Below are positions 42,001 to 63,000 of a DNA stretch of 64,000 nt, in pieces. The position numbers were made by a program. Source of the stretch: Octopus sinensis (Eukaryota); contig NC_043000.1 of assembly GCF_006345805.1 (NCBI RefSeq), positions 21,328,001 through 21,392,000 of the forward strand. Reading direction: 5' to 3'. Positions within the stretch are counted from its first letter, which is position 1. Each line of letters starts with the position of its first letter.

Positions 42001-45000
42001 CTCTAGCTTGCTTTGAATTCGACTTGTAAGACTTTCAATGACTTGATCTCATTCGTCTTTCTGCAGATGGTAACACAATGACACACAACGTTAAAATTGG
42101 TCAGAAAGGTTTCATACCTCAAAACCTTTCACTTGAAGAAGGACAGGTATGTTATGTGGTTTCATTAATCAGTTGCTACATTAAGGGTTTTGTTTCGATG
42201 CTAAGCTTTATGACAGAATGTATCCATGGATGTTTTCTAGGCAATGAGATGTGTAGACAGATGAAAGGGTATTGTCTTAATATTTTTGTGGGCAGAAAAA
42301 GAATGGTCAGCCAGATAAATTCCACACAACTTTATTGGACTTCGTCTGCAACCGAAAAGTGTCTTGAACTGTCTACAGAAACACTGTGGTCATGTGATTT
42401 GTCACATGGTTCGTAGTGTTGTTGATGACGCCTAATGATTTTGGGTGGATATTAATTATTTCACATTCTCTTGGAGTTTCTGAATTTTTATGGCATTAAC
42501 TATATACTCTCTTTTCTTTTACTCGTTTACTTGTTTCAGTCATTTGACTGCGGCCATGCTGGAGCACCGCCTTTAATCGAGCAACTCGACCCCGGGACTT
42601 ATTCTTTTTTGTAAGCCCAGTACTTATTCTATCGGTCTCTTTTGCCGAACCGCTAAGTAACGGGGACATAAGCACACCAGCATCGGTTGTCAAGCAATGC
42701 TAGGGGGACAAACACAGACACGCAACCACACACACGCACGTATATATATACATATATACGACGGGCTTCTTTCAGTTTCCGTCTACCAAATCCACTCACA
42801 AGGCTTTGGTCGGCCCGAGGCTATAGTAGAAGACACTTGCCCAAGGTGCCACGCAGTGGGACTGAACCCGGAACCATGCGGTTGGTAAACAAGCTACTTA
42901 CCACACAGCCACTCCTGCGTCTATATATATATATAAACATACATAAACATACACACACATACATAAATACACACATGCGTGCACATACAGAGAAAGTTTC
43001 CTCCACCTCTACATCTATTTGAAGGATAAACAATAATGATATGACATTTTCCAGAAGTAAACAAATTAAATTCAAGAAAAATTACAATAACAACTGGATG
43101 TTTTTTCTGTGAAAAATTATTTTGAAATTTCTGTTTCCTTTCAGAGTGTTCTCTTTGAATGGAATGAAAAAACATACGAAAACATAACTCAGGTATCATA
43201 AATATTATTAATTTTCTATCATTGCCTTCTTCTTCTTCTTCTTCTTCTTCTCCTCATCTTCCACCTACTCCTACTCCTCCTCCTTTTTCTTTTTCTTCTT
43301 CTTCTTCTTCTTCTTCTTCTCTTCTTCTTCTTCTTCTTCTTCTTCTTCTTCTTCTTCTTCTTCTTCTCTTCTTCTTCTTCTTCTTCTTTTCTTCTTCTTC
43401 TCCTTCTTCTTCTTCTTCTCCTTCTTCTTCTTCTCATTATTATTATTATTATTATTATTATTATTATTATTATTATTTTTATTATTATTATTATTATTAC
43501 TATCATCATCATCATCATCATCATCATCATCATCATCATCATCATCATCATCATCATTATTATTATTATTATTATTATTATTATTATTATTATTATTATT
43601 ATTATTATTATTATTATTATTATTAAGGCGGTAAACTGGCAGAATTGTTAGAATGCCGGGCGAAATGCTTAGCGGTATTTCATCTGCCACTACATTCTGA
43701 GTTCAAATAAGTGGCAGATATGCCACTTATTCTGTTAATTCTATAATTTGTGTGACATTGTTCCATTATTATGTCTCTGCTACTTTCAGGAATACTGTGG
43801 CTGTTGGGATATATGTCCACATCCACCCTTAAAATGTAACCAACACTTCTTTGTACAAGATTTTCAGCCCTAGTATCTTACATGAAAAAATCTGCAGGAT
43901 GCTGGGACAAGTTGACTAAGACATGTGGCTTGGTGGTTCTGGTGTTTAGCTTACAATCATAAGGCCATGAGTTCAATTACTTGTTTGGGCAGTCCAGTTT
44001 ATTGTTGAGCATGACATTTCAATTTACACTGCTTCAGTCTACTCACCTCAAGATGCGTACCAGCTAGATGCTGATACAGCTCTCTCTCTCTCTCTTTCTC
44101 TCTCTCTATCTATCTATCTATATCTCTCCCCACCCTCTCTCTCTTTCTCTTTTCCCCCCAGCTGTCACAGTCTGGATTTACAACCAGAACAAAGGTCGGG
44201 AGAGTAAAGACCATGTCTCTCTCTCTCTGCTCACAACTGTAGAGTTACCTAAATCAACTAACTAAAGCATGGTGCATATTATGAAGCTGTAGTTGATCAC
44301 AGAAGATGGCTGCTGCTCTTTACTCGACTGGCACTTTATTTCATTTATCCTGGTGGGATGAAAAACACGTTGACCTTTGCAGGATTTGAAAGCACAGTAT
44401 AGACAAGTGAAACTGTATCTTACAGCAAGACATTTTAGTTGATACTCTAATGAGTCTGCCAATACTGTCTTACCATTTACAGATGTCCACAAAAATAATT
44501 TTCTTTTCTAAATCTGATTAATTTAGCAGTAAAATAAATCAGTGATTTTTAGCAACCTACCATTGCAAAAAAGAAATTTGTATTCCACAATGTGGATCTT
44601 TTCCTTTTGAATGGCAGTTTGTAACATAATTTCTAGGTAACTAAAAAGTTTTAAACTTCGTATACAGGTAGAATGCGTTTATAAAACATCATTTTTTCTT
44701 GGCTTTATTGAGAAAATTCTATATATTGTAGCATATTTCGTCTTTAATTTTGAGCGTTTCGGCAATTTTAACCAATCGCTCTCATCCATTTAGGTAAATA
44801 ACATTCTGTGCATAATGATTATGTCCCTCCTTTAAGAAACAGATTGGGTTTATTTACATTTGTGAAGAAAAAAGATACCCTTCCCCCACCCCTAACCCTA
44901 ACCCTAACTCTCACCCTAAATCTAAGATAGATTGAAATGCAATAGATCGATACTAGGGTTATAATTATGGGTGACAATTTCATACGACACTGCTACGGAA

Positions 45001-60000: not shown

Positions 60001-63000
60001 AACACATCACCCGGTCCAGGAATCGAAACCACAGTCTTATGATCATGATGCTGACACCCTAACCACTAAGCCACGTGCCGCCACACAGCTTCTAGTAGCA
60101 TCACACAACACTTACTGATTTAAAAAATCTTCAGTCAGACTTCCTTCGTCTTCAAAACAACTGTCATCTAATAATAATTTATAGTTTTCTTGACCTGCAA
60201 TAACAAAACAAAATTAAATTAGTTTTGTGGAATACAAATAACAAACCAATAGAATTAAAATCTGAATAATAAAATATATTTGAATTTAAGCCAAAGATTT
60301 AAATTTTCTATTCATAAATTTATTGATGATGAATTTATCAATCAATAACATTTTCATATATAAATACTAAAGTTTTGTTTAATTTCCTTTTCTTTTGGCA
60401 GCCTGTAAAAGATGGTTTTATGTGGTTGGAACCCAGGTAAGTCTGTTAAATACTACACAATTGAGCACGTCTATTTACTACTTTTCATATTTTTATATCT
60501 AAACAATGGTTTTACTGATATTAACAAGAACTTTATATAACAGGTATTTAAGTATTACTTTTATTTTAAATATCTCTGTCATTGCCATATTTTTAATGAA
60601 ATACATTACTTAGGTATATGATAATCCATTTTTAACTATAGGACTTGAAGTAGATAATGCTTCAAGTTTTGGTATAAGGCCAGCAATTCTAAGGAATGGG
60701 GTTAATCAATTACATCAACCCTGGTGGTACTTAGTTTTTTAGTTCCTAAAGGTGGTACTTATTTTTTTTTCAGTTCCTAAAGGAAGAAAAACAAAGTCGA
60801 CCTGGGCATAATTTGAACTCAGGACATAAAGATGAACAAAATGTTGCTTAAAATTTTGTCCAGCACACTAACAATTTGGCCAGCTTACTGCCTTAATAAA
60901 ATTATAAATAATGTCTAAATATTTGGCTCAAAAAATGCATTTAGATAGAAAAAACAAAAGGTCATCTATGGCTGCTATTATTTATAGTTTTATCATAGTG
61001 GCAAGCTGGCAGTAACATTAGCATGCCAGGCAAAATGCTTAGTGGTATTTAGTCTGCCGCTACGTTCTGAGTTCAAAATCCGCCGAGGTCAACTTTGCCC
61101 TTCATCCTTTCAGGGTCGATTAAATAAGTACCAGTTATGCACTGGGATTGATATAATCGGGTTAATCCGTTTGTCTGTCCTTGTTTGTCTTCTCTGTATT
61201 TAGCCCCTTGTGGGTAGTAAAGAAATAGGCATTTCGTCTGTCTTTATGCTCTGAGTTCGAATTCCACCAAGGTCAACTTTGCCATTCATCCTTTTGGAGT
61301 CGATAAATTAAGTACCAGTTGTGTACTGGGTTTGATCTAATTGACTGGCCACTCCTCAAAAATTTCGGGCCTTGTGGCTAGAGTAGAAAAGATTATTTAT
61401 AGTTTTATCTAACTCAGGTTCCACAATTAAAAACGAATTATTTCACATCTTTAAATTATTATGACATAAATTAATGCATATCTATATATATATTCTTTGA
61501 CTTTATTCATTTAAAATTTTCTGAATTATATGTTTTAAACATAGGTGATTATAATTTTGCAAGAACCCAGTTCAGTTTTTTAAAATAATTGCAAAAATCA
61601 GATGAGTTTAGTTGAATGCATAATTTTTTTTATATAACCAAGATAGTGTTTCAGAACAAAAGATTCTTACATAAAACTAGGATGGACCGTTTTAATATAA
61701 ATATGAACATTTTAAAGTGAGAGGATTTGTATCATGAAACCAGAGCCTGTTACAGGATGGTCAGTATTAAAAGGGTTAATATAAATAAAACTTTACAAGG
61801 GTCACTCATTTGTCAGTTGATTTGAAGAGCTTGTTAAGCCATAGCTAGCAAATGCATGCATACATATAGATAGATAGACAGACAGACAGATAGATAGATA
61901 GATAGATAGATAGATAGATAGATAGATAGATAGATAGACAGACAGATAGATAGATAGATAGATAGATAGATAGATAGATAGATAGATAGATAGATAGATA
62001 AGTTTCTTTATTGGCCACACAGGGCTGCACACAGATGGGACAAGTTACAAGGTAGAGCTTTTCTTTTGGGGGATGAAAAAAACAAAAAACAAAAGAAACA
62101 AAAAAAAAGGGTGGCGTAGGTTTTCGATCAAGAGGGATCGTAAAAGGGAAGAAAAGAACAAAAATAAATAAATAAATAAAATAAAAAATAGATAGATAGA
62201 TAGATAGATAGATAGATAAACAGACAGACAGACAGACAGATAGATAGATAGATAGATAGATAGATAGATAGATAGACAGACAGACAGACAGACAGACAGA
62301 CAGACAGACAGACAGACAGATAGATAGATAGATAGATAGATAGATAGATAGATAGATAGATAGATAGATAGATGTTAATGTTTGTTTTTATGTTCAGTTA
62401 TAATAAAGACAATTTTACATTAATTTGATGGGTTACTCTATACTTCTGTAGAATACAAATTTATTATTCTTATACAAGAATGTTGTTGATAGTGACTTCT
62501 AAGTTTCAGCCAGTTAAACCATTGTCAGACTGTCTTAGAAATAAAAGAAAATCTACAGTGTAAGGTAAAGTGGTCAAGAAGATCACTTCTCAGTTACATG
62601 TTTGTGTCTGTGTATGTCCCCCCCTCACCATCATTTGACAACTGATGTTGGTGTGTTTACGTCCCCGTAACTTCCAGTAACTTCAGCAAAAGAGACCGAT
62701 AGAATAAGTACTAGGCTTACAAAGAATAAGTTCTGGGGTCGATTTGTTCAACTAAAGGCGGTGCTCCAGCATGGCTGCAGTCAAATGACTGAAACAAATA
62801 AAAGAATATATATATATTTATATATTGGGCACGTTTCTTCTACTATAGCCTTAGCCTGACTAAAGCCCTGTGAGTGGATTTGGTAGACAGAAACTGAAAG
62901 AAGCACATCATGTATGTATATATATATATATATATATACATGTTTTTGTGTGTGTGTGTGTGTGTGTGTGTGTGTGTGCATATATTTTGGTGATGTTTTT

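What the first reader, a model, noticed from the sequence alone, without database searches (positions are those of the whole stretch)
42067..60436. Spliced gene missed by the ORF track, encoding tandem cupredoxin-like repeats without canonical type-1 copper ligands
Seen: nine GT-AG exons (793 nt, about 264 aa) join in frame. They give three repeats of the pattern [V/I]x[I/V]xxxxFxPxx[L/I]x[I/L]xxGxx[V/I]x[W/F]xW...[H/N]x[V/I]x[Q/E]...FxxxGxYxF. Established: this spacing typifies the cupredoxin beta-sandwich, where type-1 Cu needs His plus Cys-Xn-His-Xn-Met after the GxYxF strand. Repeat 1 has no His and no Cys. Repeat 2 has the His (RHTV) but Thr where Cys is expected, with H and C later (KLHYC). 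Inference: an uncharacterised multi-cupredoxin protein, either a metal-free scaffold or one with an atypical site. Five exons (45, 48, 72, 87 and 213 nt) can be skipped in frame.
Basis: partly seen in the sequence, partly recalled or inferred. Interest (0 to 1): 0.7.

Follow-up and report, generated by a model that had tools for sequence, protein, structure and literature searches.

The report
Octopus gene with copper-less cupredoxin repeats
The region holds the first nine exons of an already catalogued but unstudied octopus gene for a giant protein, whose front end is a string of plastocyanin-like domains that have lost the usual copper-binding residues.

Summary
Nine + strand exons (42067-60436, 793 nt) all have AG/GT borders and matching phases. 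Exon by exon they match residues 1-260 of the NCBI model 'uncharacterized protein LOC115211041 isoform X2 [Octopus sinensis]', 3132 aa, at 100% apart from residues at splice borders. So the gene is real and already annotated, and the window holds only its 5' end.

The protein belongs to an unstudied family of 3000-3900 aa proteins. Named members come from molluscs, annelids, a nemertean, echinoderms and hemichordates. The layout is seven tandem cupredoxin-like repeats, a CHB_HEX_C/Fn3_assoc module, an FN3 array and a C-terminal thioredoxin-like domain.

A predicted single repeat of a relative matches plastocyanins, TM 0.61-0.69. The position of the type-1 copper cysteine is never Cys in repeats 1-5 and 7 of 20 members.

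My best reading is copper-free beta-sandwich modules in a giant, probably cytosolic, scaffold. An atypical metal site in repeats 2 and 3 is not excluded.

The parts
42067..42146 (+). Exon E1 (80 nt): start of repeat 1 (MTHNVKIGQKGFIPQNLSLEEGQ). It holds the ATG that the NCBI model uses as its start codon. The frame stays open back to the acceptor.
   Evidence: AG acceptor, GTATGT donor. 100% to P0085 residues 1-23. HMM columns 7-29.
43145..43192 (+). Exon E2 (48 nt): repeat 1, VxFxW strand and ENITQ. Asn lies where the first copper His would be.
   Evidence: AG/GTATCA, phase 0-0. Matches P0085 residues 24-39. HMM columns 29-48.
46032..46147 (+). Exon E3 (116 nt): repeat 1, second half with FNLEGEYTF.
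   Evidence: AG/GTAAGT. 100% to P0085 residues 40-78. HMM columns 49-85.
47537..47749 (+). Exon E4 (213 nt): last strand of repeat 1 and first 60% of repeat 2. Contains GFQEDIIRISKGTSIKWYWKQC..RHTVHEV.
   Evidence: AG/GTAAGC. phmmer with this exon alone gave 65 hits at E <= 1e-3, best 1.1e-35. Matches P0085 residues 79-148.
50435..50479 (+). Exon E5 (45 nt): loop of repeat 2 (PQMGTLTGSHRQQF).
   Evidence: AG/GTAAAT. 100% to P0085 residues 150-164. 80% to P0001.
53713..53799 (+). Exon E6 (87 nt): end of repeat 2 (KPGVYYFRTESSDVNKLHYCAVVV). Thr lies at the position of the copper Cys. His-x-Cys lies in the last strand.
   Evidence: AG/GTATGT. Matches P0085 residues 165-192. HMM columns 75-101.
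55403..55499 (+). Exon E7 (97 nt): start of repeat 3 (EYKINVLDNMFQPSILVIEEGEIVWWHWSQDL).
   Evidence: AG/GTCAGT. Matches P0085 residues 193-225. HMM columns 7-41.
58148..58219 (+). Exon E8 (72 nt): repeat 3, CENSHAVFQIE. It holds the Cys-x3-His that is nearly invariant in repeat 3 of the family. It is absent from the relative P0001.
   Evidence: AG/GTATGT, phase 0-0. 100% to P0085 residues 226-249. Matches P0004 residues 293-315.
60402..60436 (+). Exon E9 (35 nt): repeat 3 (PVKDGFMWLEP). The gene runs on beyond the window.
   Evidence: AG/GTAAGT. Matches P0085 residues 250-260. No match in the window to P0085 residues beyond 260.
49698..49870 (+). Partial duplicate of E4 with 29 nt of its upstream intron. 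It is probably a dead pseudo-exon inside intron 4.
   Evidence: 173 nt, 94% identical to 47508-47680 (family D11). The AG acceptor is kept, and a stop follows WKQSAW.

Best explanation
Shown. Window 42067-60436 (+) carries the first nine coding exons of the octopus gene that NCBI lists as LOC115211041, 'uncharacterized protein', 3132 aa in Octopus sinensis. They encode repeats 1, 2 and half of repeat 3. The annotated octopus protein has seven tandem repeats of about 100 residues. Relatives of these repeats are predicted to adopt the cupredoxin (plastocyanin-like) Greek-key beta-sandwich. The family lacks the Cys, second His and Met of the type-1 copper site.

Inferred. The repeats are not blue-copper electron carriers. 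They are rigid beta-sandwich modules used for structure or protein binding. They sit at the head of a very long rod made of a CHB_HEX_C/Fn3_assoc module and an FN3 array, ending in a thioredoxin-like domain.

Relatives have no signal peptide or membrane span, and 20 of 27 begin MGxGxS, which I recall as an N-myristoylation consensus. The protein is therefore most likely cytosolic, and in most species tethered by its N-terminus to a membrane. This would put the cupredoxin-like head next to the membrane.

The conserved Cys and His residues of repeats 2 and 3 may stabilise the fold or hold a non-blue metal. That question is open.
For: Gene identity
- Splice sites are canonical at 9 of 9 acceptors and donors, and phases agree.
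- All nine exons match P0085 residues 1-260 at 100%, border residues aside.
- Relatives of exon E4 alone: 65 at E <= 1e-3, best 1.1e-35.

Seven repeats
- 22 of 27 family proteins have exactly seven, 2 have eight and 3 have six.
- P0085 has seven.

Fold
- Pfam Cupredoxin_1 was above its cut-off in 6 of 10 homologues scanned.
- Copper-bind scored 25.8 bits against a cut-off of 21.2 in P0085.
- AF2 of P0013 (repeat 2 of a relative): pLDDT 87-96 over residues 131-220.
- Foldseek against PDB: 40 of the 43 listed rows are plastocyanin, pseudoazurin, cupredoxin, laccase, multicopper oxidase or nitrite reductase, with TM 0.61-0.69 to plastocyanins.
- AF2 of P0001 (804 aa, pLDDT 78.7): top matches are factor VIII/V and ceruloplasmin, E 1e-20 to 1e-16.

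Ligands
- The Cys column is Cys in 0 of 20 members in repeats 1-5 and 7, and in 1 of 20 in repeat 6.
- HMMER's alignment to plastocyanin puts Ser, Ile and Val at the Cys, His and Met positions of repeat 5.

Location
- No 19-residue window with mean hydropathy above 1.8 in 8 of 9 proteins; the ninth has one window at 1.82.
- MGxGxS start in 20 of 27.

Architecture.
Against: - The folds come from stand-ins (P0013 and P0001, relatives of unnamed origin). They do not come from the window's own joined peptide, which I did not build.
- No single window exon reaches any Pfam cupredoxin model (0 of 4 tried).
- PDB matches by sequence are weak (best E 0.066 and 0.11).
- Strong conservation argues that these positions do more than fill a scaffold. 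In repeat 3: Cys38 in 18 of 20, His42 in 20 of 20, Asp86 in 20 of 20. In repeat 2: Cys38 in 18, His42 in 15, His95 in 15, Cys97 in 19 of 20. His42 and Asp86 sit at two canonical ligand positions.
- The octopus model starts at MTHNV without the MGxGxS motif. No such exon was found in the 42 kb upstream. The membrane tether is therefore not shown for this species.
- Cytosolic location rests only on the absence of hydrophobic segments.
- No expression or junction data were available.
Confidence: 0.6

Rival explanations
1. Atypical metal site. Repeats 2 and 3 keep a working but non-blue metal centre. In repeat 3 it would be His42 plus Asp86 at the canonical His and Cys positions, with Cys38. In repeat 2 it would be Cys38, His42, His95 and Cys97. 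The centre would bind Zn, Cu(II) or Fe. The head of the protein would then sense or carry metal or redox state, perhaps together with the C-terminal thioredoxin-like domain.
For: - Repeat 3: His42 in 20 of 20, Asp86 in 20 of 20, Cys38 in 18 of 20.
- Repeat 2: Cys38 in 18, His42 in 15, His95 in 15, Cys97 in 19 of 20. All four occur together in 16 of 30 repeat-2 rows.
- The window has all four repeat-2 residues (E4, E6) and the Cys-x3-His of repeat 3 (E8).
- A thioredoxin-like domain with WCxxS, or WCHPC in octopus, was found in all 16 other full-length members searched.
Against: - The repeat-2 quartet is incomplete in 14 of 30 rows.
- No model coordinates were available, so I could not test whether the residues meet in space.
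- The column-to-ligand mapping rests on my ungapped anchoring at GxYxF and on one HMMER alignment.
- Conserved buried Cys and His can be purely structural.
- In octopus repeat 3, the Glu94 and Tyr95 common elsewhere are Asp and Ile.
Confidence: 0.25
2. Secreted or surface adhesion protein. Cupredoxin-like and FN3 modules would work outside the cell, as ephrins and FN3 receptors do. The Cys residues would form disulfides.
For: FN3 arrays are common in extracellular proteins (my own knowledge). Foldseek of the 804-aa model also matches DSCAM, contactin and Robo ectodomains. The true 5' end of the octopus gene is not settled.
Against: - No signal-peptide-like or membrane-spanning stretch in 9 family members.
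- 20 of 27 start MGxGxS.
- No Ephrin or other extracellular-only Pfam family was reported.
- Matches to Ig/FN3 arrays are expected for any chain of beta-sandwiches.
Confidence: 0.1
3. Multicopper-oxidase-type enzyme. The tandem cupredoxin domains would build inter-domain copper clusters, as in ceruloplasmin or laccase.
For: The top Foldseek hits of the seven-repeat model are factor VIII/V, ceruloplasmin, Mnx and laccases.
Against: - No Pfam multicopper-oxidase family appeared in any of the 24 family proteins scanned.
- The type-1 Cys is absent.
- TM-scores of the whole model are about 0.1, so the similarity is per domain and not in the arrangement.
Confidence: 0.03
4. Not a functional gene: chance open frames or a decayed pseudogene.
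For: A dead partial copy of E4 lies in intron 4. The introns are full of repeats and hold a broken mariner-type transposase.
Against: Nine intact exons have canonical sites and no stops. They are 100% identical to an NCBI model. They are conserved across several phyla.
Confidence: 0.02

Closest known systems
Octopus sinensis LOC115211041, 'uncharacterized protein' isoform X2 (P0085, 3132 aa), and its orthologues such as Strongylocentrotus purpuratus LOC577931, Aplysia californica LOC101845075 and a Ptychodera flava uncharacterized protein
   Same: The window's nine exons are residues 1-260 of P0085. The orthologues share seven repeats, CHB_HEX_C/Fn3_assoc, an FN3 array and a thioredoxin-like domain.
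   Different: Nothing differs from P0085 in the part the window holds. Most orthologues have an extra N-terminal MGxGxS leader that the octopus model lacks. All are named only 'uncharacterized', 'hypothetical' or 'fibronectin type-III domain-containing'.
Plastocyanin, pseudoazurin and amicyanin: single-domain type-1 copper cupredoxins (Pfam PF00127)
   Same: Same fold: TM 0.61-0.69 and 17-28% identity over about 100 columns. Shared sequence pattern FxPxxLxIxxGxxVxWxN..H and GxYxF. The first His is kept in repeats 2, 3, 5 and 7.
   Different: No Cys, second His or Met. In the model the ligand loop is shortened to a tight hairpin. The domains come as seven in a row inside a giant protein without a signal peptide.
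Ceruloplasmin and coagulation factors V/VIII (tandem cupredoxin-domain proteins)
   Same: Chains of cupredoxin-type domains. They are the best Foldseek hits of the seven-repeat model.
   Different: No multicopper-oxidase Pfam signatures. The overall arrangement does not superpose, TM about 0.1. Those proteins are secreted (my own knowledge), whereas this family shows no signal peptide.
Ephrin receptor-binding domain (animal cupredoxin-fold domain that lost copper binding); plant early-nodulin-like phytocyanins
   Same: A cupredoxin fold kept while the copper ligands were replaced. For ephrins this is stated in passages of PMC6485061 that I read. For early nodulin-like proteins it is recalled; I saw only listings and two passages of phytocyanin papers.
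   Different: Those are single extracellular, membrane-anchored domains with disulfides (ephrins: passages of PMC6485061; early nodulin-like proteins: recalled). No Ephrin family hit was reported here. This family is tandem and probably cytosolic.

Membership tests
Type-1 (blue) copper cupredoxins, plastocyanin/azurin family | Eight-stranded Greek-key cupredoxin beta-sandwich | tested here: met
   AF2 of relatives plus Foldseek against PDB. 40 of 43 listed rows are cupredoxin-family proteins, TM 0.61-0.69 to plastocyanins. Tested on stand-ins P0013 and P0001, not on the window's joined peptide.
Type-1 (blue) copper cupredoxins, plastocyanin/azurin family | Sequence match to Pfam PF00127 or PF13473 above the curated cut-off | tested here: inconclusive
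   P0085: Copper-bind 25.8 bits (cut-off 21.2) with no single significant stretch; Cupredoxin_1 18.9 bits (cut-off 27). Single window exons: 0 of 4 hit. Relatives: Cupredoxin_1 above cut-off in 6 of 10.
Type-1 (blue) copper cupredoxins, plastocyanin/azurin family | Copper ligands His ... Cys-Xn-His-Xn-Met | tested here: not met
   The Cys column is Cys in 0 of 20 members in repeats 1-5 and 7, and 1 of 20 in repeat 6. The window has Thr in repeat 2. The aligned His and Met positions are Ile and Val in repeat 5.
Type-1 (blue) copper cupredoxins, plastocyanin/azurin family | Binds copper and transfers electrons | not testable with these tools
   Needs purified protein, metal analysis and spectroscopy.
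LOC115211041-type giant proteins (seven cupredoxin-like repeats plus FN3 array) | Colinear sequence identity to family members over the repeats | tested here: met
   100% to P0085 residues 1-260. 57-86% per exon to P0001. HMM hits in repeat order.
LOC115211041-type giant proteins (seven cupredoxin-like repeats plus FN3 array) | Seven tandem repeats followed by CHB_HEX_C/Fn3_assoc, FN3 array and C-terminal thioredoxin-like domain | tested here: met
   True of P0085, the annotated product. The window itself holds only repeats 1, 2 and half of 3.
LOC115211041-type giant proteins (seven cupredoxin-like repeats plus FN3 array) | N-terminal MGxGxS leader (20 of 27 members) | tested here: not met
   P0085 starts MTHNV in E1. 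No MGxGxS-type open frame was found upstream in the window. The exon could lie further upstream or be absent in octopus.
Multicopper oxidases (ceruloplasmin, laccase) | Pfam Cu-oxidase domains with His-rich trinuclear cluster motifs | tested here: not met
   No such family was reported in 24 family proteins scanned.
Ephrins | Ephrin receptor-binding domain signature, signal peptide and membrane anchor | tested here: not met
   No Ephrin Pfam hit. No signal-like or membrane segment in 9 members.

The most novel reading that the evidence does not exclude
This would be a marine-invertebrate family of giant, membrane-tethered cytosolic proteins. Its cupredoxin head has swapped the blue-copper site for other metal centres: a His/Asp/Cys centre in repeat 3 and a Cys2His2-like centre in repeat 2. 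Together with the C-terminal CxxS/CxxC thioredoxin-like domain, the protein would act as a metal or redox sensing scaffold. I found no paper describing such a protein.
Probability: 0.15. Interest if true: 0.6.

Novelty: new member of a known kind. Interest (0 to 1): 0.35.

Why it matters
For the scan, a reader working from raw sequence recovered a correct nine-exon model and the correct fold class. However, the gene is already in the NCBI annotation, so it is not a missed gene.

For biology, it points to a conserved but unstudied family. Named members come from at least five phyla. In this family an electron-transfer fold has been reused seven times over without its copper site, at the head of a protein of more than 3000 residues that ends in a thioredoxin-like domain. 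Cupredoxin folds that lost copper are known, for example ephrins (PMC6485061, passages read). A cytosolic tandem array of them has not been described in the papers I could search. If the conserved His, Asp and Cys positions bind a metal, the family would be a new variant of the site.

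Tried and rejected
- Pfam on four single exon peptides gave no cupredoxin hit. The only hit was a sub-threshold phage tail family for E4, E 0.025.
- The search for homologous proteins with E4 alone, lengths 'longer', found nothing.
- The listing of cluster members on ten hits was not run because the database is switched off.
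- The protein atlas on P0004 gave only weak leads to bacterial and archaeal Copper-bind clusters, scores 0.80-0.84, below the level that counts.
- PDB by sequence gave only weak plastocyanin matches, E 0.066 and 0.11. P0002 matched only fibronectin FN3 domains.
- A search for an upstream MGxGxS first exon in the window found none.
- Rfam on the whole window gave 0 matches.
- Pfam on eight other long open frames of the window gave 0 hits.
- A bacterial promoter/terminator scan of 42000-42200 was beside the point for a eukaryote.
- Six paper searches found nothing on this family or its locus names.
- I rejected pseudogene, multicopper oxidase and secreted adhesion protein; the reasons are under the rivals.
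- Not checked: RNA-seq junctions and supplementary tables of octopus papers (closed).
- Also not checked: the metagenome and viral contig collections (closed) and the bacterial/archaeal genome collection (not used, as the gene is animal).

Full report
**1. What is in the sequence**

- E1 42067-42146
- E2 43145-43192
- E3 46032-46147
- E4 47537-47749
- E5 50435-50479
- E6 53713-53799
- E7 55403-55499
- E8 58148-58219
- E9 60402-60436

Their lengths are 80, 48, 116, 213, 45, 87, 97, 72 and 35 nt, 793 in all. All nine acceptors are AG and all nine donors GT. No exon has a stop in its frame. At each of the eight junctions the leftover bases add to 0 or 3.

Frame continuity was checked by arithmetic on phases and by colinear matches of the separate exons to database proteins.

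**2. More than chance**

The 70-residue peptide of E4 alone, searched against 1.84 billion representative proteins, found 65 relatives at E <= 1e-3 and 10 at <= 1e-10. The best was P0001 at 1.1e-35.

I built a repeat HMM from those relatives, not from the window. I ran it against all 3240 stop-to-stop ORF pieces of the window on both strands. The seven pieces with E <= 1 were E4, a partial copy of E4, E7, E6, E1, E2 and E3. The six exons matched the model in order:
- E1-E2-E3 cover columns 7-85 of one repeat.
- E4 and E6 cover columns 1-61 and 75-101 of the next.
- E7 covers columns 7-41 of a third.

The next hit had E 1.9.

**3. Identity**

A search with the first 270 residues of P0001 among longer proteins returned P0085, which NCBI names 'uncharacterized protein LOC115211041 isoform X2 [Octopus sinensis]', 3132 aa.

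tblastn of P0085 against the window matches E1, E3, E5 and E8 at 100%. It matches E2, E4, E6, E7 and E9 at 100% up to the residue where the alignment runs over a splice border. Together they are residues 1-260 in order. Nothing beyond residue 260 is in the window.

So the window comes from Octopus sinensis or a very close relative (lineage). It is not human. The gene is already annotated with exactly this exon chain, E8 included.

The NCBI model starts at the ATG inside E1 (MTHNV). The frame stays open back to the acceptor, so an upstream coding exon is possible. I found no MGxGxS-type open frame in the 42 kb upstream.

**4. The family**

Named full-length relatives are 2000-3900 aa. They come from:
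- hemichordates (Ptychodera, Glandiceps)
- echinoderms (Acanthaster, Asterias, Lytechinus, Strongylocentrotus LOC577931, Diadema, Anneissia, Antedon)
- annelids (Owenia, Dimorphilus)
- a nemertean (Lineus)
- many molluscs (Haliotis, Aplysia, Mytilus, Lottia, Ostrea, Lymnaea, Bulinus, Gigantopelta, Potamilus, Sinanodonta, Physella, Pinctada, Plakobranchus)

All carry only placeholder names.

Of 27 family proteins, 22 have exactly seven repeat hits, 2 have eight and 3 have six. P0085 has seven.

After the repeats Pfam finds CHB_HEX_C_1/Fn3_assoc and then a long FN3 array.

Weak thioredoxin hits near the C-terminus occurred in 4 of 14 full-length members scanned, all below cut-off. That led me to search the P0085 region 2881-3040 against 16 other full-length members. 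All 16 matched, E 6e-24 to 2.4e-5. The motif is PTxxLFWTxWCxxS in most and WCHPC in octopus.

Nine members showed no signal-peptide-like or membrane-spanning stretch. There was no 19-residue window above 1.8 except one at 1.82 in P0001. Twenty of 27 begin MGxGxS (isoform pairs included). I recall this as the N-myristoylation consensus; it comes from no call.

**5. Fold**

Pfam Cupredoxin_1 is above its cut-off in 6 of 10 relatives first scanned. A seventh is just below, and three short fragments have none. In P0085, Copper-bind scores 25.8 bits (cut-off 21.2) and Cupredoxin_1 18.9 (cut-off 27). Single window exons reach no cupredoxin model (0 of 4).

AlphaFold2 of P0001 with a 20-sequence alignment gave pLDDT 78.7 and pTM 0.75, all-beta. 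Its best PDB matches are factor VIII/V and ceruloplasmin (E 3.5e-20 to about 1e-16). Arrays of Ig/FN3 domains also match, and TM is only about 0.1, as expected for a flexible chain.

For a cleaner test I folded P0013 (260 aa; the end of repeat 1 plus repeat 2 of a relative, 43% identical to E4) with 45 sequences. pLDDT was 87-96 over residues 131-220. Foldseek listed 43 rows:
- 40 are plastocyanins, pseudoazurins, a purple cupredoxin, two-domain laccases, a multicopper oxidase or nitrite reductases. I count 1m9w as plastocyanin on the strength.
- 2 have uninformative titles.
- 1 is the Ig protein CD226.

TM to plastocyanins is 0.61-0.69 with 17-28% identity.

**6. Copper ligands**

I anchored the repeat HMM on GxYxF against plastocyanin (GTYTYYCEPHxGAGM). 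HMMER's own alignment of repeat 5 puts Ser, Ile and Val at the Cys, His and Met positions.

I then counted columns in 20 members. Of the 27, I dropped five without exactly seven hits, one isoform duplicate and one with a truncated repeat 1.
- The Cys column is never Cys in repeats 1-5 and 7. It is Cys once in repeat 6.
- The first-His column is His in 6, 15, 20, 0, 19, 10 and 20 of 20 for repeats 1 to 7.

In the window:
- Repeat 1 has Asn there (ENITQ).
- Repeat 2 has RHTV, with Thr at the Cys position.
- Repeat 3 has NSHAV.

In the model the ligand loop is a short hairpin between the last two strands. A type-1 site is thus excluded by sequence. No Pfam multicopper-oxidase family appears either.

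**7. What remains conserved**

- Repeat 2 keeps Cys38 (18 of 20), His42 (15), His95 (15) and Cys97 (19). All four occur together in 16 of 30 repeat-2 rows.
- Repeat 3 keeps Cys38 (18), His42 (20), Asp86 (20), Glu94 (16) and Tyr95 (19).

His42 and column 86 are two of the four canonical ligand positions, so a non-blue metal site is conceivable.

**8. Explanation**

The best-supported reading is that the window encodes the head of a giant scaffold. Its cupredoxin-fold modules have lost electron-transfer copper and serve as rigid structural or binding units. Most relatives appear cytosolic and N-terminally lipid-tethered.

Shown: gene identity, exon structure, repeat number, fold class on stand-ins, absence of type-1 ligands.

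Inferred: cytosolic location, tether, scaffold role.

Rivals, with my odds:
- atypical metal site, 0.25
- extracellular adhesion protein, 0.1
- multicopper oxidase, 0.03
- pseudogene, 0.02

**9. Literature**

Six full-text searches found nothing on this family or on seven of its locus names.

From PMC6485061 I read passages stating three things:
- Ephrin domains are cupredoxin-fold domains that lost copper binding.
- The copper site is defined by Cys112, His46 and His117, with Gly45 and Met121, in azurin numbering.
- Multidomain cupredoxins found in animal surveys were set aside in that study.

From PMC4499708 I read two passages on phytocyanins. That early nodulin-like proteins lack the ligands is recalled. 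Supplementary tables of octopus transcriptome or proteome papers may list this locus, but they were closed.

**10. Verdict**

The gene is already annotated yet uncharacterised, and it is a new member of the known kind 'cupredoxin fold without copper ligands'. Interest is modest at 0.35. It would rise if the conserved His, Asp and Cys positions prove to bind metal.

Noticed in passing
window 49698-49870 (+): Partial duplicate of exon E4 with 29 nt of its upstream intron, 173 nt at 94% identity to 47508-47680. The AG acceptor is kept, the similarity ends after WKQ, and a stop follows. By phase, a GT just before the stop would leave TG, which with the first base of E5 makes a stop codon. It looks like a dead or poison pseudo-exon.
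   Followed up: partly
window 56010-57073 (+), in the intron between E7 and E8: Mariner/Mos1-type transposase remnant. HTH_48 (E 2.5e-9) lies in 56010-56279 and Transposase_1 (E 4.3e-21) in 56291-56716. The open frame continues in a third piece, 56717-57073. The reading frame is broken into three pieces.
   Followed up: partly
P0085 residues 2881-3040 (outside the window): A conserved C-terminal thioredoxin-like domain is found in all 16 other full-length family members searched. Octopus has a two-cysteine WCHPC motif where the others have WCxxS.
   Followed up: partly
P0001 against window 58148-58219: The relative P0001 (67% identical to P0085 over residues 1-270) lacks exactly the 24 residues of exon E8, which carry the Cys-x3-His of repeat 3. 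This is either exon skipping or a gap in that gene model.
   Followed up: partly
N-termini of family proteins P0002-P0009, P0066-P0084: 20 of 27 begin MGxGxS (for example MGTGAS, MGAGAS, MGSGAS). The octopus model begins MTHNV instead, and no such exon lies in the 42 kb upstream in the window.
   Followed up: partly
window 44594-44892 and 45120-45418: Large inverted repeat in the intron between E2 and E3. Arms are 299 nt and 92% complementary, 227 nt apart, with a nested 135-nt pair at 44868-45143. It looks like a foldback element.
   Followed up: no
window 42484-42851, 52731-53019, 53959-54362, 59583-59795 (+); inverted copies 62692-62961: Several copies of one or two dispersed short repeats, 60-94% alike, scattered through the introns in both orientations (families D12-D17, I3-I8). 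Probably SINE-like elements. Rfam found no tRNA or other family in the window.
   Followed up: no
window 43212-43665, 47331-47493, 57499-57580, 61803-62400: Long microsatellites: CTT/ATT/ATC runs just after E2, a (TA)n run ending about 40 nt before the E4 acceptor, a (GT)n run, and GATA/GACA arrays.
   Followed up: no
window 390-1870 (+): Three adjoining long open frames (271, 114 and 148 aa) of normal composition at the start of the window, with no Pfam hit. Possibly a decayed mobile-element gene.
   Followed up: partly
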